Positions 1 to 9,708 of a stretch of DNA of 64,000 bases are shown here, piece after piece. Within the stretch, counting starts at the first letter, position 1. Every line of letters begins with the position of its first letter. The notes under the pieces were generated by a model. The model saw nothing but the letters and a program-made list of their open reading frames with translations. It did no database searches and was not told the origin of the DNA. The position numbers and the translations under genes were made by a program. This stretch comes from Paecilomyces variotii (lineage: Eukaryota), in assembly GCA_004022145.1 (NCBI GenBank), contig RCNU01000014.1. One strand, given 5' to 3'.

Positions 1-1245
1 GGGGTTGAAGACCTGGGGCCTCAGCAGATAACTAGTGCTTGGGTACAAGAAGCTGCTGGCTTGACGCCGCAGCAGGTGTAGAAAATATTCGCTAATAAAA
101 TTAGTTAAATGCTATTATATATAATTGAGAAAACATACCTCGAATTGAGTCCGCTGAACGTTTCCCTGAATGGAAGACTTGCTGTATATAGATTGCAAGA
201 GCGGCCAGGGTAAAAGACTGTGCGTTTGTGGCTGCATCTTCTGGGGAGACTCGGCCCAATGTAAACACCACGCCTCTAGGTTTTCACTAACAGTATCGGT
301 TCTGGCATGCTTTATCCATTTGACGAGCCCTGTCCGCTGGTCCCACGCAACCACAGATCTTTATCAGCATATAACCGGGGCCTCGTGTCTGACCAGCCTG
401 CCTCGAGCACAATGAGTGGGATTTGCCTGCCAATAGGCATAATTTCCAGATCGGGCTCCTTGGTAGAGCCAGCATAAACGCCAGTAGAGTTAGTAAGTCC
501 TGATATGAAATGTTAGCTAAGAGTATACTACAGATAATCCATGACATAACTCACTGTCTCCCACAGCAGTGACAAGTGTTGCACTTTCTTTGGCCGTAAG
601 AAGTACCTGGACATAAGCCGCGTAGAGGCATAAATTGATCCATACCTGTGGGGTATTATGTATAGAGATTGGCATTCATTAGGACAAATGATAAGTGGCG
701 CGAGGGAGAATAATAACCATATCTTAGAGATCGTTTCTCGAACAGGCGGTCGATTTCATTGGAAACTTCAGACGTAGTGTCTGCGGTGATGTCTTCAAAT
801 TGCACTATTATCTAGTAACAGAATCAGGCGATTCAAAATTGTATGTGTCTCAGTGGGATATCTTTCGCGCATTATAAACTAATAGTGAAGTTGTATTAAG
901 CTGCACGAAGATAATATAGGAGTCTCCAGGATTGCAGAAGTAGTGTAATACTTTTATGCGGTATATGGTCTTCGAGGCAGCGTATGCAAAAGGTTAATGA
1001 CCGAACACTGAATATAATCAGTGGCATCGTTGGTTAAGAGAAATGACTAATTCAATGTCGAATAAGTATAATAGATCTTGATGAAACTGGGGATTATAAC
1101 TGATAGTCTTGATGCAGTTCAATAATAGGAAAAATCCAAATAAGTGTGGTTTCATGGGTAGGCAGCACAATACCACTAAGGATGACTTAATCAACGACAG
1201 CAGCTCTTGTAGTTATTTCAAGTCAGATCCATAGGGACTCTGAAT

Positions 1246-1530
1246 CTAGACTTGATAGGATTGAATATGATAGGGGAAAAAAGGTACTGGTGGCATATAA
1301 CGAAGAACTTTAAGCTGGAGAGGGGAAAGGGGAAGGATTTCGAGAAAGTTTTGGGGTAGTTTATGTTCTGCCGGCAAATCTATCCCTCCAGTTCCTCTTT
1401 TAGCAATGGACTTGTGCCACATGTTGTATTGGATCTGTTCTAAAGGGGTGAACGAGACGGTCAGACGGATACTATGGGCCGGTGGAATTGTGTCACCGAT
1501 CACCTGCCCGACATGAAAAGGGATGCGAGA
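1246..1530 (-). pseudogene. Gene fragment, possibly from a SNF2-like helicase, truncated at a solo-LTR-like element
   Basis: The minus frame reads SRIPFHVGQVIGDTIPPAHSIRLTVSFTPLEQIQY, which resembles the 'LPPK...V.LSP.Q...Y' linker after the SNF2 N-terminal lobe. It has no real start codon, and the resemblance stops at 1531. Confidence 0.3.
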
Positions 1531-1730
1531 TGTCAGAACAGTTGTGGGCGCCCGGCAAAAACACCTAGGCTATATGTACAGGCAGGAAAGGAAAGAAACC
1601 ACTTTCAGACGTCTATAATGAAGATATAGTCTCTAGCAACTAGCTCAGCCTATTTATCTCTGTGGGTGGGGGTAGAAAATGTGGGAGAAACCCGACAAGA
1701 GGGAGGCCTGCATGTAGGCAGGCTCCGACA
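1531..1730 (-). mobile_element. Solo-LTR-like remnant (200 bp)
   Basis: TG...CA ends with an imperfect terminal inverted repeat (TGTCAGAAC at 1531 vs GCTCCGACA ending 1730; 7/9 match, both mismatches are transitions). Internal TATA-like ATAAATAGG on the minus strand. No target-site duplication found. Confidence 0.5.
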
Positions 1731-2295
1731 TATACTACTAAATTAATGGGGCAAGCCCCTGGTCTACTAGTCAGATATAAGAGGTGGAAGAAGCTCGAAT
1801 GCCTATTCACTAGGAGCGGTAGCTGAGTACTTTTGCTAGGTAAGGTAGAACCCGGCCGTTGAGACCATTAACTAACGCAGGAACTACCCCTCCATCCGAC
1901 CTAGCATCTCAAACCTCCATAGTCACCAAATATGGGTATCGTATTAGCTCAGGGCATATGGTGCTAGAATAGGTAATCAGAATAGAGGGCGGCTAAAGAT
2001 CAAGTAAACTTTTCAAGTTGTAACTAGTTTATTCAACGGTTCCACAATCGAAGTTTCGCTCGATAGATTGCTCCATTCCGGTGTCATTCGCATCTACTGC
2101 ATTGTGACGCATCCAAGCACCAGGATATAACATGAAAAGATCTCGAATACTTGATTCGAGCCATATTGTTAATTTCAAGATCAGCTATCTAAGACCCTGG
2201 CCGGGTTAGAGGGAACTCAATGCGGGAGGTGTTGGAGATCGCGCTCCATAGGCGCAAAGAAGTCTCAAGAAAAGATAATCCAGCATCCCATCTTT

Positions 2296-3432
2296 TCACA
2301 GCATGGATTGAGTAGCGTCTCTTTGGCTTCTTCCGTATTTCTGATGACTCCTGGAGAACTCCCCGCATGCTACTGCAGCTGCACTGCTAAGATCTAGCGC
2401 GAGTGAGAAAGATGCTATCAGCCCGGCAAGGCGATGCTTGCTGCCAGGACCAGTGCAGCGAAGGAGCTCCAGAGCTTCTTTCTGTGTTGGATACGTTGTA
2501 CCACCACCGATAGTGCCAACAGGGAGGGACGGGAACAGACATGTGAGCTTCAACTCCTTCGTATCTGAATCGTACTCCACAGTCAGATGGTTCCCGGCAG
2601 CTTCTGCGACACTTGCAGCATCTTGACCGCAGGCAATGAACATAGCAGCAATGACATTGCTCATGTTCACGCAATATCCCACTTGACCGTTCCTATGCGC
2701 CCCCTCCTTGCCATTGAGGAGCACGCGGTACAAGTGGTCAGAACCGCATCCAAGGACTTTTCGGCACGCTGAATCCGAGATAGTTCCCCATGCTAGGACC
2801 TTGACACCGCGAGTTCGCATCATGTTTCCCGATGAGAGGTTCTTATCACTTCCTGTTTGGCCGACGATTGTGATATTTTGGAGATTCAGTGCCTTCGCGA
2901 GAGACGAAGCCCAGAACTTATCGCAAGCTGCCTGGGTAGCAACGGTGGCCATATTTTGGCCCGCCGCGTCGCCGCAATAATACTCAAAAATAACATGAAC
3001 AGTGGAACCCACAATATTGGGCACTGCACGTTGAAATTTCAAGTACTTGCTTGTCGACTCAGCGTCTCGTTTGAACTGGGACTGCAGGTCGGGGATCAAT
3101 TCAGCGAAACGAACCGCATCCGCGGTATTCGTGAACCAGAACACGGGGTCGCGAGACATAGCCTCATGAAGAACTTTGAACTGAACTCCTCCACAGAGGT
3201 TAAAAGTCTTACATCCGCGGGCACAACTAGCTACCAGTGTCCCTTCGGAGGTAGCCAAAGGGGCATAGAATAGCCCATCCGTATCGGCGCTTCCTCTGAC
3301 GCGGAGGGGACCGGCAATGCCAACGGGGACGCGAGTAAACCCAACACAGTTCTCAATCCTGATATTTCGAATCTCGTCATCATCAGCCCTGATGTGCTTT
3401 AGCTGTGACAGAACCTCAGCCGGGATCTTCAT
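2296..3432 (-). CDS. Soluble class I HMG-CoA reductase-like protein (378 aa, catalytic domain only, intronless)
   Basis: Motifs ENCVG, PLATSEGTLVAS, GDAAGQNM, SDK, ACGQDAA, GTIGGGT and C-terminal SHQKYGR. No N-terminal membrane/sterol-sensing domain. Confidence 0.92.
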   Translation of the reverse strand: MKIPAEVLSQLKHIRADDDEIRNIRIENCVGFTRVPVGIAGPLRVRGSADTDGLFYAPLATSEGTLVASCARGCKTFNLCGGVQFKVLHEAMSRDPVFWFTNTADAVRFAELIPDLQSQFKRDAESTSKYLKFQRAVPNIVGSTVHVIFEYYCGDAAGQNMATVATQAACDKFWASSLAKALNLQNITIVGQTGSDKNLSSGNMMRTRGVKVLAWGTISDSACRKVLGCGSDHLYRVLLNGKEGAHRNGQVGYCVNMSNVIAAMFIACGQDAASVAEAAGNHLTVEYDSDTKELKLTCLFPSLPVGTIGGGTTYPTQKEALELLRCTGPGSKHRLAGLIASFSLALDLSSAAAVACGEFSRSHQKYGRSQRDATQSML

Positions 3433-3938
3433 TGTTGGTGGGAAGTTCTTGTGAGCTGATGACGGATTTCACGAATATAGTAGAAAAACGAATATAATAA
3501 GTGCTTCATATAGGGCTATCAATACAGGATATTCTGACCTTTATATGGTTTATCTAATATGATGTATCTCATTCAGTCTGCTTCACATGTGTCCGTCTGC
3601 TCTGCTTCGGGCTTCGACGGATCACATCACGTCCACAGGTCAAAGCCCGAATGAATTTTACAGCTATTGGTTTTGGATTGGTCCAAGAGAACATCACCAG
3701 TTACAACTTTCCGAACTAATCCGGTATGAGAGTTTCAAGGGAGTGAAGATCGAAGTTTCCTGGAGCCCTCATAATCCTATGATAATGCACCGGCAGAGTG
3801 TAAGCCCCATCCTTAACCATGTTACGCCAGTTCGCCGAACTGCTCCACACATGTAGCCCGACAAGAGTAGCTAAATATTTAACCTTATCTGTTCAAGTGG
3901 GTGACTGCATTTGACTCAGGAATATCAGAACTTTCCGG

Positions 3939-4388
3939 CTAACAACCCCTGCCGGCACGCCTTAAACAGGCCCCCGGCCATATGGGAATCGAAGGCAACA
4001 GGACTGCCAATACACTCTCCAATAAAAGCGTCTTCTGCACCTCTCGATAAAAGGGCCGGAGTCCCTCCGGATAGTTCGTGGGATATAGACTGGCTATAAA
4101 GCAATGCTCGTGTGGAATGAGGGGCAAGTCTCCACTAAACTCTGCAAATGGTATAAATGCTGGGACTAATATTGCACTTACAAATTCAAGCTTCTTCCGG
4201 AGCTTGGTCTACACAACCCTGTCCTTTACCGATAGCTTACCCTTAGATTCTCCTGTAGGAATTCGAACTAGTATTGTTGCAATGTCCACGATAAAAGTCA
4301 CTAATTTTATTTGCTCATGCAAATGCCGTAAAAGCCTAGAACGGCTTATTCTCTGCTCCAAAGCATAATATAGCCTTAGCCAATGGTT
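3939..4388 (-). pseudogene. Decayed coding fragment of unknown family
   Basis: About 150 codons in one minus frame (WLRLYYALEQRISRSRLLRHLHEQ...PEGLRPFYREVQK...) with a single internal TAG at 4209-4211. No recognisable domain. Confidence 0.3.
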
Positions 4389-5030
4389 CTATCATCCTTT
4401 ATTCCTCTTTTTCAAGCAGGAGGTGCTTACTTACTTTTAATCCCTCGGTCCTAGGGAGTTCACAGGGTTCTTTAGCATTATAGAGTTCTACTCAAAACCT
4501 GCACCCGCTAAACCCAGGCAGGATGTCTAATATACTAGGGCCTGCCCGGAATAAGGTTTGGGTTGTAGATAAAGATTGTATGTGGATCACGTATCGTCTG
4601 GAATCGTCTTCTCTTTGACAGACAGCACCACTGTACGTGTCATATAAACGGTGTAAGGAGAAGAGCCTTGTCTTCCGATTGCGCAGTCACATTTGTGTTC
4701 TAATCCAGAATGGCTCCGTCTAAATTCAGCTACAACGATCGTGGATGATCTAGCAACCTCAATAGAGAACGGCAAATCTATATCCACCAGTACCGGCTTA
4801 TTGGGTTCTGCCGTGGTTTCGTAAGGCCTTGATGAGATAGGATGGTGCAATTGTAAGCAGACCTACATGAGCAATATGACTACTGGTCATAGAGCTCAGG
4901 TATTTAATGACGAGGTACGCACTAGTGGACAAATAAATCCGCCCTTGTGTATATCAAGATAACTAGATTGTCTTTTTACGTCCTCGACGTGAGTTCGTTG
5001 AAACAACGTTTATTATTATAACATTCAGCC

Positions 5031-6407
5031 ATGGCAACACTCACAGCAACTGTAGCGTCTCATGACCTTTCGCCAACTATATCGCTGACCGAAGAATCGA
5101 GTTCCAACAGTGCAGACGCCCAATTGAGTGACCTTTACGGAGACAAATTCGAATTCCCCGACTTCACCATCAAGCAGATTCGTGATGCGATCCCTCGTCA
5201 CTGTTTTGAACGTCCTGCCTTTACTTCGTTATATTACATGGCCCGCGATTGTATCGCGTTAGCTGTGGTCTTTGCTGTTTTCTATCGTTATAATACCCCT
5301 GATTTCGTGCCGTCTGCAACCGTGCGGTGCCTTTCGTGGATATTATACTCTACTATACAGGGCCTTTTGGGGACTGGGCTGTGGGTTATAGGCCATGAGT
5401 GCGGACATCAAGCTTTCTCTCGGTTCAAGGTTTTGAATGACTTCGTTGGCTTCGTCTGCCATTCATTCGTGCTTGTGCCATACTTCTCGTTCAAACTTTC
5501 CCACAGGCAACACCACAAAGTCACAGGAAATATCTCAAGAGATGTGGGGTTCGTCCCGATGACGAAAGAACAGTTCGCTTCTCATCTTCGCGTGACAGTG
5601 GACGAACTCAATGACCTGACGGAAGAGATCCCTTTCGTCACGGCTATCAACCTTCTTGGACAGCAGCTCTTTGGATGGCCGCTATATCTTCTCTGCAATG
5701 TGAGCTCTCACAATCACCATGAAAGCAAAAAGTCAGGCCGCGGAAAAGGAAAGCGCAATGGTCTCTTCGGTGGAGTCAACCATTTTAGCCCTTCCAGTCC
5801 CCTATTCGAAGCCAAAGACGCAAACGTGATCCTATTGAGCGATCTTGGCCTCTTCTTGATGGCAAGTTTTCTTGGTTATATCGGCTCCAGATTCGGCTGG
5901 TGGAATCTGTTCGTCTGGTATGGGTTACCATATATATGGGTGAATCACTGGATTGGTAAGTTATCGTGCAGCTGAATGATGATCACCACCATTAACGATA
6001 CGTTTTCAGCTGCTATTACGTTTCTTCAGCACACAGACGCTTTTGTCCCTCACTACGAACCTGAGGTGTGGAGCTTCTGCCGTGGAGCATGTTCTACTGT
6101 TGATCGTGACATGGGCTTCATTGGGCGTCATATTTTTCACAGGGGCACTGATACCCATGTGCTCCACCACTTCGTCAGCACCATCCCGTTCTATCACGCT
6201 GAAGAGGCAACGGAGGCGATTAGAAAGGTGATGGGCAGACACTACCGTAGATCTGATAATACTGGTTTGATAGGTTTCCTGAAAGATCTGTGGAAGAGCT
6301 ATCGCCTTTGTCAATGGGTCGAGCCTGTCGATGGTGCTGAGGGGGAAAATAAGGGGGTTCTCTTCTACCGCAGTCACAATTCCCCACCAGTTCCTCAACC
6401 GGAGTGA
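5031..6407 (+). CDS. FAD2/delta-12-type membrane fatty acid desaturase-family protein, divergent (about 440 aa; exons 5031-5955 and 6010-6407)
   Basis: His boxes HECGH, HRQHH and HVLHH; PDFTIKQIRDAIP N-terminal motif. The GTAAGT...CAG intron (5956-6009) joins NHWI-AAITFLQHTD in frame. Confidence 0.93.
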
Positions 6408-6677: not shown

Positions 6678-7894
6678 TGTGAATCGATATGCTTTTTGAT
6701 AATATCACCGTCTGTCCTATAAGAAGGTAGTATCTGACGTCTCTCCGAACCATACTAAACAATGCTGCAGCTGGTGTACGTAGGTAAGATTTCCCCATGC
6801 ACATCAGCTGGGAGTGTATAACTATCTGCGAGAAATGCCGGTGCGCCAATGCTAAGCTTATGGAAAGGGTCCATGTGGCGGCCAATACCCATGAAGAAGC
6901 TATTCTCTAGGTAAGTAGTTCGCTGCTCCGTATTCTCAGTAGCGTCGATCGCTGGAAATTAGGCTTTTGATATTTGAAATATAACTAAGGCGGGCAGTGA
7001 GTTAGCGAATAATGTCCTATTTCATACCATCATGATGTTTCCATTGCTCACAAAAGTACTAATATAGAACAGAGAAGATCTAAAAGATCCGCCAATCGGA
7101 GCGTTATCATCATCCTTGTTCGCAGGAATTATCCCGAAATGGCAAGCTATCCGCCGTTACATTGATCTAAAGATTTTAGTAGCAATATAACTTATGATAT
7201 GTGAGGTCTGTGAACCTCGACCGCGTGCTTAATGGCGTAAACTCTTCTCTTCCTGCTAGATTTCCGCAGATCCCGTTCATGACGGTCGATGCTAGTCGAG
7301 AACTTTATCAAGACGAGCGATGTATACTCTTGATGGCGGGCTGAGCCTTGGCTATGCCTTTGACAAACGGCCGAATAGAATAACCGGTCTGCTCTATTTC
7401 AGTCAGCGACGTAATCATACTCTACTCTATACATACGTGTGTGGGTGTGAGTGGGCCATTTGGTATGAATATAGCTGACGCTTGGTTCTTTTTTGCTCAC
7501 TTCGAGCCCTCCTTCGGCCCATCTATAACCACCGCATTCGGTCGTAATTGATAGTACATTGTGACATATCAGATACAGAGCGATGATGAGGAACACCGTG
7601 GAATAGAGGTTACTTTCTGCTGTGAAGTCATCAGTCGGGAACCCAGCCGTGAGCAGTCGTAGTATACTACATGGTTATCGCCGTACGGTACTCCCTCTTG
7701 TCAGACACACCGTCTTGGAACTCTCAATTCCCTTCCGGCTGCAAATTCCCACCTGCACTCGAAGCAGCCAAAACATGGATTTCTTTGAAAGTTGCGGCTT
7801 TGGTGGGCTGCTCATACCACTCTTCGACACGCAGATAAGTCTCCTCTGCTCACTTTCATTTTCCATCATATCCTCCGGACCAATAGTTATAGAA

Positions 7895-9708
7895 ATGCTC
7901 TTCGGGTCTCAGCCCGACGGAGACATTTCTCTCTTTCATTCAGAAACCAGTACCCTTCTTCTTAGTAAGTCGTCAAAAAACAGACAGGACGAGATCTCGC
8001 TAGTGAAACTATGTCGAGATTCCATTCCCTCGAAATGCTCCCCTAATAAACTTCTCTTCAACGGCCATCTGCAAACAATCTGGACGGTTCTGAAATCCAG
8101 CCATGTTCCCGTATACTACAAGCGGAAAATATTCGAGTCGAACAACAGTCTCTATCCAGGTCAATTTGCAGTGGACTTCGTGGTTCCTCCCTACGATTCA
8201 TCATCAGATGATCCTGAAGTCATCGACGCTGCGAGGAAATACACCCTCCCTGATGGATTACCATCTCTGACGGGGCTTTTTACGCATAACGAGGCTCAAG
8301 GATTATCATCACAGGACTCCAAGCCGATGCTGGTCGTTCTGCATGGTCTTTGTGGAGGCTCTCATGAGGAATATCTCAGACATGTATTGGCTGCATTGAC
8401 AGCCGATGGTAGCTGGGAAGCATGTGTACTCAATGCTCGAGGCTGCTCTCAAACAAAGATTACTACCGGTGTACTCTACCATGCTGCGGCAACGTGGGAT
8501 TTACGACAGACCGTCGAATGGCTACGTGAAACGTTTCCAAATCGTCCTCTATTTGGTATCGGATTTTCACTCGGTGCAAACATCCTTGCTACGGTATGTC
8601 CTCTCGACAATGAACCAACTACGTACGTACGCTAACTCCCTCCCCTCTCCCCTGTAAAGTACTTAGGACAAGAACAAGAGGCCTCTCAACTTAAGGCAGC
8701 GGTATTCTGCGCAAATCCATGGAATATCGAAATCTGTTCTGTCAATCTACAAAATTCAAGAATCGGTCTTGGAATATACAGTAAAGCAATAGGTACAAGT
8801 ACAAGACGGCTTTTTGAACAGTACGTACTTATATTTCGACCCTCTTTCCAGTCTCATCATGAACTAAACAAAAACTGTCTTGTTAGACATTACTCAATCC
8901 TTTCCAAGAATCCACACATAGATATTGATGCAGCACGAACGATCGTCTACCAGCATGACTTTGACCGGTGCGTCGTGCATCCCCCCCTAAACCCCTCAAA
9001 CTGACGTTGAAAGATGTACACTGCTTACTGAACGGGTTTTAGAATCATACAATGCCCAACCTGGGGCTATCCAACAGAAAGAGCTTATTATCGAGACGCA
9101 TCTTGCGTTGATGCTATGCTAGCTATCAAAATCCCCTTCTTTGCATTAAACGCAGAGGATGATCCAGTTAAGTCTAACTTAGTCCATCACCCCCAAAATT
9201 CACAACCATCGGTAGGTAACTACTTATCGCACAAGACTAACAGACAGACATCAAATAGATCGCTACTCGTCACGCAATCCCATATCAGGAATTCAGAAAA
9301 ACGCCCTACGGAGTCCTGGTCACTACACCGTGGGGTGGACATCTTGGTTGGTTTGAACGTAATGGCGAGAGATGGTTCGTTAAACCTGTAAGTTACCTAG
9401 TTACCTACCTAAAGTATCTAAGGTTTTTGGAAAAATCATTCTCGCATAAGCGTTCGTCTGCCGATTGATGACTAGCTGACAGATAAATCGATGACTAGGT
9501 GTGTAATTTTCTTAATAAGATGGCGAGTGAAATCGATCTTGAGTCGCCGTTGGTTATACGAAAGTCCGGGCGGGAATCTGGCAAATCGCTTGCTTTGGTT
9601 GGGAAGAAGAAGAAGAAGAACTTGCACGTGGGACCCAAGCAGGGGGTTTTTGATCCTATGAGGCGAAAATTACTGCCGCCAGGTTCTGAACTTAAGGATG
9701 CAAGTTAG
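7895..9708 (+). CDS. EHT1/EEB1 (ABHD1/3, YheT)-family alpha/beta hydrolase: acyl-CoA:alcohol acyltransferase/esterase; 6 exons
   Basis: FNGHLQT, HGLCGGSHEEY, NARGC, nucleophile GFSLG, acid NAEDDP and His GGHLGWF. Manual splicing over five GT-AG introns (first donor at 8594) gives an uninterrupted frame to TAG at 9706-9708. Confidence 0.9.

What the first reader, a model, noticed from the sequence alone, without database searches (positions are those of the whole stretch)
2296..3432. HMGR-like enzyme keeps its catalytic residues but appears to lose the HMG-carboxylate/statin-binding residues
This is a by-eye alignment to human HMGR motifs, with human numbering recalled from the structural literature. 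Retained: catalytic E559, K691, D767 and H866 (here E63 in ATSEG, K197, D271 in GQDAA, H363), plus R590 (R94), D690 (D196) and N755 (N259). Changed: the cis-loop AVSGNYCTDKK becomes TIVGQTGSDKN (S684->V190, K692->N198), NKNLVGSAMAG becomes LNGKEGAHRNG (K735->N240), and H752 becomes N256. S684, K692 and K735 are established contacts to the terminal carboxylate of HMG and of statins. Inference: the enzyme is active but uses a different, probably non-carboxylated acyl-CoA substrate, or it is inhibitor-insensitive.
Basis: partly seen in the sequence, partly recalled or inferred. Interest (0 to 1): 0.75.

Follow-up and report, generated by a model that had tools for sequence, protein, structure and literature searches.

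The report
HMGR-fold reductase paired with desaturase
This mould gene looks like the cholesterol-pathway enzyme HMG-CoA reductase, but it belongs to a separate fungal branch related to bacterial fatty acyl-CoA reductases and always sits beside an unusual fatty-acid desaturase, so it probably makes a lipid-derived alcohol rather than mevalonate.

Summary
The ORF at 2296-3432 (-) is real, complete, single-exon and transcribed. It encodes a 378-aa soluble HMGR-fold protein of Paecilomyces variotii.

- **Confirmed:** E63, K197, D271 and H363 are retained. S684->V190, K692->N198 and H752->N256 hold.
- **Not robust:** K735->N240. HMMER and MAFFT place K735 on G241. hhalign places it on K242, which is conserved across the family.

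The protein is not an orthologue of eukaryotic HMGR. It lies in a monophyletic Pezizomycotina family of ~380-aa proteins; 85 of 121 members end in -KL, which resembles a peroxisomal signal. The family's sister group is a bacterial clade within the "FcrA/putative FcrA" radiation (Grossi 2025). The one tested FcrA reduces fatty acyl-CoA, not HMG-CoA, and ignores simvastatin.

V190 and N198 are sub-clade traits. By consecutive accessions or locus tags, the V190 form lies next to a divergent FAD2-type desaturase in all four species that have it.

Best reading (0.55): an alcohol-forming acyl-CoA reductase acting on a modified fatty acyl chain. A true HMGR is not excluded (0.15).

The scan earlier reported a bacterial FcrA-type reductase on other DNA, and a first-reader note proposes this cluster on this window.

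The parts
2296..3432 (-). Complete single-exon CDS of the 378-aa HMGR-fold protein (P0001); stop codon at 2296-2298.
   Evidence: ORF list and translation. PF00368 at 7.9e-85. AF2 model pLDDT 93.8, pTM 0.92. Foldseek top hits are 6hr7 and 1dqa, TM 0.87-0.89.
1782..3480 (-). Extent of the unspliced transcript contig covering the whole CDS: about 48 nt of 5' leader and about 514 nt of 3' UTR. There is no upstream coding exon, so no membrane domain.
   Evidence: Run X1, record 1: 1699 nt, 0 differences. Run X2, records 7-8. X1 and X2 are shown to be RNA by GT..AG joints in the neighbouring genes.
2839..2865 (-). Cis-loop codons V190..N198 (VGQTGSDKN). V190 (2863-2865) stands for human S684, D196 for D690, K197 for K691, and N198 (2839-2841) for K692.
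   Evidence: HMMER alignment to 1dq8. Codon coordinates. Family states: E 111 / D 11 / V 4 at 190, and K 99 / S 20 / N 4 at 198, of 126.
2692..2712 (-). G241-K242-E243-G244-A245-H246-R247. This is the segment that carries K735 in canonical HMGR. It holds the family-specific motif K-E-G-x-x-R-N-G-Q.
   Evidence: K735 aligns to G241 by HMMER and MAFFT and to K242 by hhalign. Of 126 family members, K242 is K in 95 and R in 14, and R247 is R in 121. The segment lies in model helix 231-247.
2344..2358 (-). C-terminal catalytic helix: F359 (human L862 position) to H363 (human H866).
   Evidence: alignment. F359 is invariant in the 36-sequence alignment A1. The sister clade signature is E/D-N-F.
2299..2307 (-). 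C-terminal tripeptide S-M-L, a weak or non-canonical variant of the family's PTS1-like ending.
   Evidence: C-termini of 121 family members: SKL 44, PKL 12, AKL 11; 85 of 121 end in -KL; SML 3. The Xylogone orthologue ends SKL and the Scytalidium orthologue TKL.
3433..5030 (.). Shared intergenic region between the divergently transcribed HMGR-like and desaturase genes (presumed bidirectional promoter).
   Evidence: Gene orientations. Transcript contig ends at 3480 and 4984. Promoter function is inferred, not tested.
5031..6407 (+). Divergent FAD2-type desaturase, two exons with one 54-nt GT..AG intron at about 5955-6008; 440 aa when spliced.
   Evidence: Joint in X1 and X2. The spliced frame is open, 440 aa plus stop. 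PF00487 and PF11960. Forms a clade of 4 with support 1.0, apart from 66 canonical delta-12 desaturases. 25 clade-specific substitutions.
7775..9389 (+). YheT/EMB8/EHT1-type alpha/beta-hydrolase gene. Exons 7775-8592, 8659-8820, 8887-8966, 9042-9166 and 9259-9389+. The 3' end was not determined here.
   Evidence: Joints in X1 and X2. Open frame through 9389. Abhydrolase_1 and Hydrolase_4. Atlas look-alikes EMB8 / YheT, scores 0.85-0.89, a lead only. The 771-aa merged model in P. variotii No. 5 joins it to the desaturase.

Best explanation
The gene encodes a soluble NADPH-dependent thioester reductase with the class-I HMGR fold. It uses the HMGR catalytic tetrad (E63, K197, D271, H363) to reduce an acyl-CoA by four electrons to the primary alcohol.

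The substrate is not HMG-CoA. It is probably a fatty-acid-derived acyl chain modified by the divergent FAD2-type enzyme encoded next door. The neighbouring EHT1/YheT-type hydrolase or acyltransferase may then esterify or release the alcohol.

The enzyme is a member of a Pezizomycotina-specific family that branched from the bacterial 'FcrA/putative FcrA' radiation. Most members end in a peroxisomal-type signal.

**Shown:** fold, retained catalytic residues, phylogenetic placement, expression, conserved gene adjacency.
**Inferred:** substrate class, direction of the reaction, peroxisomal location, involvement of the hydrolase.
For: 1. **Catalytic residues.** E63, K197, N259, D271 and H363 are invariant in the 36-sequence alignment A1; in the 259-domain alignment E63, K197 and N259 are invariant and D271 is D in 125 and H363 H in 120 of 126 family members. 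The HMGR fold is predicted with pLDDT 93.8 and matches 6hr7 and 1dqa at TM 0.87-0.89.
2. **Not canonical HMGR.**
   - TIGR00533 scores 244.6 bits against a cut-off of 441.8.
   - In a 450-domain tree rooted on 37 canonical eukaryotic HMGRs (signature S684/H752/L862 = S-H-L), the 125 fungal short proteins are monophyletic with support 1.0.
   - Their sister is a 204-leaf prokaryotic clade with signature E/D-N-F. The immediate sister node is unsupported (0.07); the enclosing nodes that group the fungal family with the ENF clade and a few small clades score 0.84, 0.96, 0.93 and 0.94 going rootward.
   - The best non-fungal hit is an Alcanivorax protein at 41% identity.
3. **Precedent.** FcrA reduces C14+ acyl-CoA with NADPH, shows no HMG-CoA activity and is not inhibited by simvastatin. 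Its diagnostics are S684->Glu, K735->small and L862->bulky (PMC11948995, sections 18-20 read). The query has F359 at the L862 position, and the family has E at 684 in 111 of 126.
4. **Query sub-clade.**
   - In a 27-leaf clade (support 0.974), K198 is lost in 24 of 27.
   - V190 occurs in 4 of 125 sequences.
   - At 13 positions conserved in the rest of the family, all four V190 sequences (3 species in the tree; P. lecythidis was not in it) differ. The changes include W280->G/A, V162->A and K198->N/S, with a net side-chain loss of about 305 cubic angstroms.
5. **Gene pair.**
   - The neighbouring desaturase forms a clade of 4 (P. variotii, P. lecythidis, Xylogone, Scytalidium), support 1.0, apart from 66 canonical delta-12 desaturases. 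Those 66 include a second P. variotii copy.
   - HMGR-like and desaturase carry consecutive locus tags or accession numbers in 4 of 4 species and in at least 11 P. variotii strains. The species span Eurotiomycetes and Leotiomycetes.
6. **Expression and constraint.** All three genes are covered by transcript contigs in runs X1 and X2. 10 of the 13 listed CDS differences from a related strain are synonymous.
7. **Supporting contexts.**
   - No mevalonate-pathway gene was seen among the 55 window ORFs scanned or among 45 ORFs around 7 bacterial sister-clade loci.
   - One other fungal family member (L089) lies 3.7 kb from an alcohol acetyltransferase (PF07247) and next to an MFS transporter.
Against: - The only assayed FcrA belongs to a different sub-clade (signature E-H-W, with an N-terminal extension, near L070 and L065). 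No member of the fungal family or of its sister E/D-N-F clade has been assayed.
- The query has Val, not the diagnostic Glu, at position 684.
- The family keeps a Lys at or next to K735 (K242; hhalign aligns them) and a nearly invariant R247-N248. That suggests a polar or anionic substrate end rather than a plain alkyl pocket.
- Grossi et al. state that 12 of 59 modelled putative FcrAs, 'mainly in eukaryotes', may hold only smaller molecules.
- No wax synthase (WS/DGAT) or ether-lipid gene was seen in the window.
- The query ends in -SML, not -SKL, so peroxisomal import is uncertain.
- No model coordinates were available, so pocket geometry was not examined.
- Adjacency in other species is read from consecutive accessions, not from their DNA.
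Confidence: 0.55

Rival explanations
1. It is a genuine soluble (possibly peroxisomal) HMG-CoA reductase that makes mevalonate. K242, and perhaps R247, take over carboxylate binding from K735, S684 and K692.
For: - All catalytic residues, D196 (D690) and R94 (R590) are kept.
- hhalign aligns K242 with canonical K735. K242 is K or R in 109 of 126 family members, and R247 is R in 121 of 126.
- A cluster-embedded 'HMG-CoA reductase' (AN1593/pbcC) is co-induced with GGPP synthase and a diterpene synthase in A. nidulans (PMC3323652, passages read). If that protein belongs to this short family, the family would include true HMGRs. I could not obtain its sequence or length.
Against: - It scores below the TIGR00533 cut-off: 244.6 against 441.8.
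- It is separated from canonical HMGRs in the tree.
- Two of the three carboxylate contacts are gone in the query (V190, N198).
- F359 sits at the L862 position. Grossi et al. propose that a bulky residue there counter-selects the branched HMG chain.
- Its conserved partner is a fatty-acid desaturase paralogue, not an isoprenoid gene.
- No mevalonate or terpene gene was found among the 55 window ORFs scanned.
Confidence: 0.15
2. The chemistry and fold are the same, but the substrate or direction differs. Either it reduces a short, polar or carboxylated acyl-CoA unrelated to the desaturase, or it runs oxidatively (alcohol + CoA -> acyl-CoA) to feed alcohols released by the neighbouring esterase into peroxisomal beta-oxidation.
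For: - The family has a conserved charged motif, K-E-G-x-x-R-N-G-Q.
- Grossi et al. remark that eukaryotic putative FcrAs may hold smaller molecules (section 19 read).
- The family has PTS1-like ends: 85 of 121 end in -KL.
- An alpha/beta-hydrolase and a Zn-dependent alcohol dehydrogenase lie nearby.
- HMGR chemistry is reversible in the catabolic class-II enzyme (recalled, not tested).
Against: - The tight, cross-class conservation of the pair with a FAD2 paralogue is more easily explained by a shared fatty-acyl substrate.
- The V190 sub-clade has lost charge in the cis loop (E->V, K->N).
- Nothing here tests direction.
Confidence: 0.2
3. It is an inhibitor-insensitive HMGR kept as a self-resistance copy for a statin-like metabolite.
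For: - The statin and HMG carboxylate contacts are altered.
- HMGR paralogues inside fungal clusters are used as resistance markers (PMC10734572: abstract, section 15 and supplement rows read).
Against: - The cluster-linked HMGRs in that study are 955-1048 aa, full-length proteins (supplement rows), not this 378-aa family.
- No PKS, NRPS or terpene synthase was found in the 60 kb to the right. Only 2.3 kb is visible to the left.
- The phylogenetic placement is outside canonical HMGR.
Confidence: 0.03
4. It is a catalytically dead or decaying paralogue.
For: - Several substrate-pocket residues have changed.
- The PTS1 is non-canonical.
Against: - The frame is intact and the catalytic tetrad is invariant.
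- It is conserved at 76% identity across fungal classes.
- 10 of the 13 listed differences are synonymous.
- It is transcribed.
- The model is confident.
Confidence: 0.05

Closest known systems
FcrA, the class-I-HMGR-derived fatty acyl-CoA reductase (Grossi et al., ISME J 2025, PMC11948995; assayed protein from 'Ca. Promineifilum breve', genetic context in Natronomonas pharaonis and other Halobacteriales)
   Same: - HMGR fold with the E/K/D/H tetrad retained.
- Lies outside the canonical HMGR clade.
- An aromatic residue replaces L862 (F359 here, Trp528 in N. pharaonis).
- No Ser at position 684.
- Shares the one-residue deletion after the K735 position.
- Soluble, with no sterol-sensing domain.
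- The paper's 'putative FcrA' set already contains unnamed eukaryotic sequences.
   Different: - The query sits in a separate fungal clade whose sister is the E/D-N-F bacterial clade, not the E-H-W clade that holds the Halobacteriales and Chloroflexia type.
- Val, not Glu, at position 684.
- N, not H, at position 752.
- A Lys (K242) at or beside K735, plus a conserved R247-N248.
- No N-terminal Lad or ACP domain.
- A PTS1-like C-terminus.
- The partner gene is a FAD2 paralogue, not WS/DGAT or an ether-lipid gene.
- Activity is untested.
Canonical class-I HMG-CoA reductase (human HMGCR catalytic domain 1dq8/1dqa; Methanothermococcus thermolithotrophicus 6hr7; fungal Hmg1/Hmg2)
   Same: - Same domain (PF00368) and fold, TM 0.86-0.89.
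- Same catalytic residues, and D690, R590 and N755.
   Different: - 29-35% identity.
- No membrane or SSD domain. A. fumigatus Hmg1 and Hmg2 are 1130 and 1062 aa (PMC8512156, passages read).
- S684->V, K692->N, H752->N, L862->F.
- Below the TIGR00533 cut-off.
- In a different clade.
Bacterial HMGR-kinase fusion proteins of the E/D-N-F clade (annotated 'phosphotransferase' in Photorhabdus and Kosakonia; also A-T-HMGR-kinase and DUF3419-HMGR-APH forms)
   Same: - The nearest non-fungal relatives by tree and score, 36-42% identity.
- They share the E/D-N-F signature with most of the fungal family.
   Different: - Multidomain, 750-1450 aa, with APH/EcKL kinase, adenylation and carrier domains.
- Uncharacterised.
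- The fungal proteins are single-domain.
Divergent plant FAD2 enzymes (conjugases, acetylenases, epoxygenases, hydroxylases), as a comparison for the partner gene
   Same: The neighbour has Gly instead of the conserved Ala immediately before the first His box (A121G). From memory, that change marks functionally diverged plant FAD2s.
   Different: - It is fungal, and no product is known.
- The parallel is recalled from the plant literature and was not tested here.

Membership tests
Canonical class-I HMG-CoA reductase (EC 1.1.1.34) | PF00368 domain and HMGR fold | tested here: met
   PF00368 at 7.9e-85. AF2 model pLDDT 93.8. Foldseek hits 6hr7 and 1dqa at TM 0.87-0.89.
Canonical class-I HMG-CoA reductase (EC 1.1.1.34) | Catalytic residues E559, K691, D767, H866 | tested here: met
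   E63, K197, D271 and H363 by HMMER alignment to 1dq8. Invariant in A1.
Canonical class-I HMG-CoA reductase (EC 1.1.1.34) | HMG carboxylate contacts S684 and K692 | tested here: not met
   V190 and N198. Canonical eukaryotic sequences carry S at 684 in 37 of 37; the signature is S-H-L in 34 of 37 and S-Q-L in 3.
Canonical class-I HMG-CoA reductase (EC 1.1.1.34) | K735 salt bridge to the HMG carboxylate | tested here: inconclusive
   K735 aligns to G241 by HMMER and MAFFT and to K242 by hhalign. No coordinates were available to check side-chain position.
Canonical class-I HMG-CoA reductase (EC 1.1.1.34) | Reaches the NCBIfam equivalog cut-off (TIGR00533) or the eukaryotic subfamily cut-off (TIGR00920) | tested here: not met
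   244.6 against 441.8 bits, and 189.5 against 778.35 bits.
Canonical class-I HMG-CoA reductase (EC 1.1.1.34) | Groups with characterised archaeal and eukaryotic HMGRs in a tree | tested here: not met
   Fungal short family monophyletic (support 1.0), sister to the prokaryotic E/D-N-F clade and away from 37 eukaryotic HMGRs and the haloarchaeal canonical copy L085. FastTree only, with one archaeal canonical sequence.
Canonical class-I HMG-CoA reductase (EC 1.1.1.34) | Reduces HMG-CoA to mevalonate and is statin-sensitive | not testable with these tools
   Needs an enzyme assay or complementation.
FcrA (HMGR-derived fatty acyl-CoA reductase, Grossi 2025) | HMGR catalytic residues conserved | tested here: met
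FcrA (HMGR-derived fatty acyl-CoA reductase, Grossi 2025) | Ser684 replaced by Glu | tested here: not met
   The query has V190. The fungal family has E in 111 of 126, D in 11 and V in 4. In the 125-leaf tree set, V occurs in 4 sequences from 3 species.
FcrA (HMGR-derived fatty acyl-CoA reductase, Grossi 2025) | Lys735 (printed 'Lys795' in the paper) replaced by a small residue | tested here: inconclusive
   G241 by two alignments. The conserved K242 is adjacent, and hhalign equates it with K735.
FcrA (HMGR-derived fatty acyl-CoA reductase, Grossi 2025) | Leu862 replaced by a bulky residue | tested here: met
   F359, invariant in A1. The characterised type has Trp (clade signature E-H-W).
FcrA (HMGR-derived fatty acyl-CoA reductase, Grossi 2025) | Lies in the monophyletic FcrA/putative-FcrA clade | tested here: inconclusive
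   It is outside canonical HMGR and inside the non-canonical radiation. It is not in the 46-leaf clade that holds the Halobacteriales (L070) and Chloroflexia (L065) type. The assayed protein itself was not in my tree.
FcrA (HMGR-derived fatty acyl-CoA reductase, Grossi 2025) | Genomic or phyletic link to wax-ester (WS/DGAT) or ether-lipid genes | tested here: not met
   No such Pfam family was found among the 55 window ORFs scanned. The conserved partner is a FAD2 paralogue. No whole genome was held, so absence elsewhere in the genome is untested.
FcrA (HMGR-derived fatty acyl-CoA reductase, Grossi 2025) | Reduces long-chain acyl-CoA to alcohol, with no HMG-CoA activity and no statin inhibition | not testable with these tools
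   Needs an assay.
Cluster-borne self-resistance HMGR (lvrA type) | Full-length canonical HMGR inside a statin-type PKS cluster | tested here: not met
   The protein is 378 aa and single-exon. No PKS was found in the window. The published cluster HMGRs are 955-1048 aa.

The most novel reading that the evidence does not exclude
A small mobile gene module builds an unusual unsaturated, or otherwise modified, fatty alcohol or ester in fungi. Its parts are a divergent FAD2-type fatty-acid modifier, an HMGR-fold acyl-CoA reductase that is probably peroxisomal, and perhaps an EHT1-type acyltransferase.

This would be the first eukaryotic pathway in which an HMG-CoA-reductase descendant serves as the alcohol-forming acyl-CoA reductase. 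It would also imply that the hundreds of ~380-aa Pezizomycotina proteins annotated 'HMG-CoA reductase' are a bacterial-derived family of peroxisomal thioester reductases with diversified substrates.
Probability: 0.35. Interest if true: 0.7.

Novelty: new variant of a known kind. Interest (0 to 1): 0.55.

Why it matters
**Annotation.** At least 120 listed proteins, out of 1678 hits, from Aspergillus, Penicillium, Fusarium, Colletotrichum, Dothideomycetes and others are named 'HMG-CoA reductase' in public records. If they are not HMGRs, then metabolic models, counts of mevalonate-pathway genes and target or resistance reasoning based on those names are wrong for these paralogues.

**Enzymology.** The family would extend the recently discovered HMGR-to-acyl-CoA-reductase switch (FcrA, 2025) into eukaryotes. 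It would add a distinct pocket motif and a probable peroxisomal location.

**Testable handle.** The gene pair conserved in Paecilomyces, Xylogone and Scytalidium gives a concrete two-gene system for finding the substrate and product.

**Limit.** It would matter less if the enzyme proves to be an ordinary soluble HMGR.

Tried and rejected
1. **Whole-genome look-ups.** No genome is held for this window. I could not check for the canonical Hmg1 copy, WS/DGAT, or the DNA left of the window.
2. **Mis-called resistance markers.** I asked whether published 'resistance-gene' HMGR hits in fungal clusters (PMC10734572) are really this short family. They are not: the rows I saw give 955-1048 aa and 55-61% identity to the A. 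terreus housekeeping HMGR.
3. **A. fumigatus Hmg2.** I asked whether it is the short form. It is not: 1062 aa (PMC8512156).
4. **AN1593/pbcC.** I asked whether the HMGR of the A. nidulans pimaradiene cluster belongs to the family. The two papers holding the name give neither length nor sequence, so this stays unresolved.
5. **Literature.**
   - 'HMG-CoA reductase-like': 0 papers.
   - 'HMGR-like': 5 papers, one relevant.
   - 'FcrA' with 'fatty acyl-CoA reductase': 1 paper.
   - 'hmg3, hmg2, hmg1, Aspergillus fumigatus': 0 papers.
   - The peroxisomal-targeting search gave one review with nothing on this family.
   - Within these searches I found no paper on the short fungal family. The supplement of the FcrA paper, which may name the eukaryotic sequences, could not be read.
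6. **Metagenome contigs for context.** Only 8 of 80 loci were fungal-like (47-53% identity). I scanned 66 ORFs from 5 of them and left out L090 (a near-duplicate of L089), L103 (same as L104) and L091 (short). Contexts varied, with no terpene genes. One alcohol acetyltransferase plus MFS lay near L089.
7. **tRNA search.** The search over window 1-5000, run to explain a pile-up of contig ends near 1630-1733, found none.
8. **Read contigs.** They cannot rank expression. The metatranscriptome runs X4 and X6 also cover the intergenic DNA, so they were used only for sequence differences.
9. **Scan-index look-up by sequence.** It returned nothing.
10. **Complex prediction.** No job was sent. A homodimer pass would mostly reflect likeness to solved HMGRs.
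Full report
**1. What is there**

Window 2296..3432 (minus strand) is an uninterrupted ATG-to-stop frame of 378 codons.
- It matches Pfam PF00368 (HMG-CoA_red) at E 7.9e-85 over residues 8-368.
- A transcript contig from run X1 (1699 nt, no differences) spans 1782-3480 without any joint. Two contigs from run X2 cover 2026-3409.
- The same two runs show GT..AG joints in the neighbouring genes, so they are RNA assemblies.
- The gene is therefore single-exon, with about 48 nt of leader and no upstream coding exon. It has no membrane or sterol-sensing domain.
- The protein is 99% identical to a hypothetical protein of Paecilomyces variotii. No whole genome is held for the window.
- Of the 13 CDS differences listed against a related strain in two metatranscriptomes, 10 are synonymous.
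- An AlphaFold2 model built on a 77-sequence alignment is confident (pLDDT 93.8, pTM 0.92). It matches solved class-I HMGRs (6hr7 TM 0.87; 1dqa TM 0.89).

**2.

The printed HMMER alignment to human chain 1dq8_A, with chain index + 421 giving human numbering, yields these equivalences:

| Human residue | Query residue |
|---|---|
| E559 | E63 |
| R590 | R94 |
| S684 | V190 |
| D690 | D196 |
| K691 | K197 |
| K692 | N198 |
| N755 | N259 |
| D767 | D271 |
| L862 | F359 |
| H866 | H363 |

H752=N256 comes from the MAFFT column table (canonical H in 34 of 37).

K735 does not.
- HMMER and a 450-domain MAFFT alignment put K735 on G241, with K242 one residue later and a one-residue deletion after it. 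The canonical Lys is invariant in 37 of 37 eukaryotic HMGRs in that alignment.
- A profile-profile alignment of the fungal family against 14 canonical eukaryotic HMGRs puts K735 on K242.
- K242 is K in 95 and R in 14 of 126 family members.
- In the model it lies in helix 231-247.
- I had no coordinates, so I cannot say where its side chain points.

**3. The family**
- A word-indexed search found 1678 relatives. The 120 best are all fungal-type proteins of 343-456 aa. Those that carry a source name are from Pezizomycotina, often with several per genome.
- An exhaustive search of cluster representatives found 2710 proteins at E <= 0.001.
- Of 121 family members, 85 end in -KL: SKL 44, PKL 12, AKL 11, and others. 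That is the pattern of a type-1 peroxisomal targeting signal (the consensus is recalled). The query ends in -SML.
- In a search of longer proteins, all 113 hits were either bacterial-type fusions or canonical sterol-sensing HMGRs. No long fused form of the fungal family appeared.

**4. Where the family belongs**

I extracted 450 HMGR domains, aligned them, trimmed to 374 columns and built a FastTree LG+gamma tree. The set comprised fungal short proteins, nearest representatives, canonical eukaryotic HMGRs from the 'longer' search, and prokaryotic loci from GTDB genomes.

Rooted on the 37 canonical eukaryotic HMGRs (signature S-H-L at positions 684/752/862):
- The 125 fungal short proteins are monophyletic, support 1.0.
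- Their sister is a 204-leaf prokaryotic clade with signature E/D-N-F. It includes an Alcanivorax protein (41% identical), a Flavobacteriales protein, a Streptomyces protein and many fusions. The immediate sister node is unsupported (0.07); the enclosing nodes that group the fungal family with this clade and a few small clades score 0.84, 0.96, 0.93 and 0.94 going rootward.
- A separate 46-leaf clade holds proteins of signature E-H-W with N-terminal extensions, from a Halobacteriales archaeon (L070), a Thermoplasmata archaeon (L032) and a Chloroflexia bacterium (L065).
- The second HMGR copy of the same Halobacteriales genome (L085) has the canonical S-K-H-L pattern with the K735 Lys.
- The query scores 244.6 bits on the NCBIfam HMGR equivalog TIGR00533, whose cut-off is 441.8.

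**5. The precedent**

Grossi et al. (ISME J 2025, PMC11948995; I read the abstract, sections 18-20 and term passages; the supplement could not be read) reported the following:
- A large monophyletic group of class-I 'HMGRs' is distinct from the characterised archaeal and eukaryotic enzymes.
- One member, Pb-FcrA, reduces acyl-CoA of C14 and longer to the alcohol with NADPH. It does not reduce HMG-CoA and is not inhibited by 10 uM simvastatin.
- The catalytic residues are kept, while Ser684 becomes Glu, Lys735 (printed 'Lys795') becomes a small residue, and Leu862 becomes bulky.
- The words 'fung', 'Aspergillus', 'peroxiso' and 'kinase' do not occur in the main text.

The fungal family fits this radiation by tree and by two signatures: the acid at 684 in 122 of 126, and Phe at 862. 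It is not in the assayed sub-clade. It also has its own nearly invariant motif, K242-E243-G-x-x-R247-N248-G-Q250, in the very segment that forms the end of the substrate pocket.

**6. What is special about the query**
- Within the family, the query lies in a 27-leaf clade (support 0.974) of Eurotiales and two Leotiomycetes. There K198 (human K692) is lost in 24 of 27, and D196 is Glu in 18.
- Val at 190 occurs in only 4 of 125 sequences in the tree: two P. variotii, Xylogone sp. and Scytalidium lignicola.
- At 13 positions conserved in at least 75% of the other 98 family members, all four V190 sequences (3 species in the tree; P. lecythidis was not in it) differ. The changes are S71A, A95D, I141V, V162A, E190V, K198S/N, F251L/V, T257M, A258C/S, W280G/A, T350S, L366Y and A367G. 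The net loss of side-chain volume is about 305 cubic angstroms.
- Whether these positions line the pocket was not tested.

**7. The partner gene**

The desaturase is transcribed divergently, 1.6 kb away. It is a FAD2-type enzyme (5031-6407, with a 54-nt intron confirmed by RNA joints; 440 aa).
- Its closest relatives are P. variotii (98%), P. lecythidis (81%), Xylogone (65%) and Scytalidium (62%).
- In a tree of 70 full-length hits, these four form a clade of support 1.0 on a long branch. They stand apart from 66 ordinary delta-12 desaturases, which include a second P. variotii copy.
- They share 25 substitutions at positions at least 90% conserved in the 66. The substitutions include Ala->Gly just before the first His box, Trp->Phe and Gly->Arg at the second box, and three changes before the third. 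From memory, the Ala->Gly change marks functionally diverged plant FAD2s. This was not tested.
- Cluster look-ups show consecutive locus tags or accession numbers for the HMGR-like and desaturase proteins in at least 11 P. variotii strains, in P. lecythidis (KAL1852552/KAL1852551), in Xylogone (KAH8812302/KAH8812301) and in Scytalidium (g7427/g7426). That is 4 of 4 species, spanning Eurotiomycetes and Leotiomycetes.
- Adjacency outside the window is inferred from numbering, not read from DNA.

**8. Further neighbours**
- Downstream of the desaturase lies a multi-intron alpha/beta-hydrolase gene (7775 to at least 9389). Its look-alikes are EMB8/YheT-type hydrolases, which is a lead only.
- A 771-aa gene model in P. 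variotii No. 5 merges the desaturase with this hydrolase (83% identical over 207 residues).
- The P. lecythidis desaturase model carries the name 'medium-chain fatty acid ethyl ester synthase/esterase 2'. So the three-gene order holds within Paecilomyces.
- Further right are a MARVEL-domain ORF, a Zn-dependent alcohol dehydrogenase and then housekeeping genes.
- No PKS, NRPS, terpene or mevalonate gene was seen among the 55 ORFs scanned. Only 2.3 kb lies to the left, with no Pfam match.

**9. Reading**

The best-supported mechanism is HMGR-type chemistry: thioester to hemithioacetal to aldehyde to alcohol, using two NADPH. Here it is applied to an acyl-CoA other than HMG-CoA. For this sub-clade the substrate is most likely a fatty-acyl chain produced by the FAD2 paralogue. 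The product alcohol may then be esterified or released by the neighbouring hydrolase or acyltransferase. Confidence is 0.55.

Rivals:
- A true soluble HMGR with K242 standing in for K735 (0.15).
- The same enzyme type acting on a short or polar acyl-CoA, or running oxidatively in peroxisomal catabolism (0.20).
- A statin-resistance copy (0.03).
- A dead paralogue (0.05).

The main points against my reading:
- The assayed FcrA is distant.
- The query has Val instead of Glu at 190.
- The family motif is charged.
- No wax-synthase or ether-lipid partner was found.
- It is unresolved whether the terpene-cluster gene AN1593 of A. nidulans belongs to this family.

**10. Novelty**

HMGR-derived acyl-CoA reductases are in print (2025), and that paper's tree already included unnamed eukaryotic members. 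Within my searches, I found nothing on:
- the fungal family as such;
- its peroxisomal-type ending;
- its own pocket motif;
- the V190/N198 sub-clade;
- the conserved pairing with a divergent FAD2.

I rate it a new variant of a known kind, interest 0.55.

The scan's index holds a first-reader note on this same window proposing the HMGR-like + FAD2 + EHT1-type cluster (e1-7221463). It also holds a follow-up on another genome describing a bacterial FcrA-type reductase in an ether-lipid operon (e1-5027386). I saw both after reaching the same reading.

Noticed in passing
window 5031-6407 (+): FAD2-type desaturase paralogue with 25 clade-specific substitutions at positions that are at least 90% conserved in 66 ordinary fungal delta-12 desaturases. 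Several flank all three His boxes: GHECGH instead of AHECGH, HRQHH instead of HGKHH, and HRGTDTHVLHH instead of HGIIETHVLHH. It may have a non-desaturase outcome such as hydroxylation, conjugation or acetylenation. The product is unknown.
   Followed up: partly
window 7775-9389+ (+): Alpha/beta-hydrolase of the YheT/EMB8/EHT1 type with at least four introns. Public gene models in P. variotii No. 5 merge it with the desaturase (771 aa), and the P. lecythidis desaturase model carries the EHT1-type product name.
   Followed up: partly
Loci L003, L007, L011, L020, L024, L037 (genome contigs); proteins P0134, P0142, P0171, P0272-P0341: The bacterial sister clade consists largely of HMGR-fold domains fused to an APH/EcKL-type kinase. 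Some carry an adenylation domain plus carrier domain in front (P0171), a DUF3419 domain (P0142), or PF07238 by precomputed Pfam (P0292, P0308, P0312, P0323). Neighbours in 7 loci include MMPL/RND transporters (2), PPDK-like enzymes (2), UbiA-type transferases (2), a CarS-like protein and a fatty-acid desaturase. No mevalonate genes were seen. This looks like an undescribed acid -> alcohol -> alkyl-phosphate lipid pathway.
   Followed up: partly
L089:9698-16303 (and its near-duplicate L090): A fungal family member (49% identical to the query) on a 1.19-Mb contig filed as a metagenome. It lies next to an MFS/TRI12-like transporter and 3.7 kb from an alcohol acetyltransferase (PF07247). This fits an alcohol-forming role for another member of the family.
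   Followed up: no
Proteins P0007-P0024, P0030, P0038, P0122 (Penicillium/Aspergillus sub-clade): In 18 of the 27 sequences of the query's sub-clade, the Asp equivalent to human D690 is Glu and the following K692 position is Ser, Cys or Ala (cis loop '...SEKS...'). This is a second, different remodelling of the cis loop.
   Followed up: no
window 2296-6407 versus Xylogone sp. PMI_703 and Scytalidium lignicola: The closest non-Paecilomyces relatives of both genes of the pair are in Leotiomycetes (76% for the reductase, 62-65% for the desaturase), not in other Eurotiales (at most 63% for the reductase). This patchy distribution suggests transfer of the pair between classes, or extensive loss.
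   Followed up: partly
window about 1630-1733: In all four runs laid, many contigs end or start here with unrelated loose ends. Word depth is high at 1500-1766, as at a repeated or widely shared short element. ARAGORN finds no tRNA in 1-5000.
   Followed up: partly
P0225 / P0271 (Fusarium culmorum, 2221 and 2268 aa): Long hypothetical proteins whose only Pfam match is a partial HMGR domain at the extreme C-terminus. They may be merged gene models.
   Followed up: no
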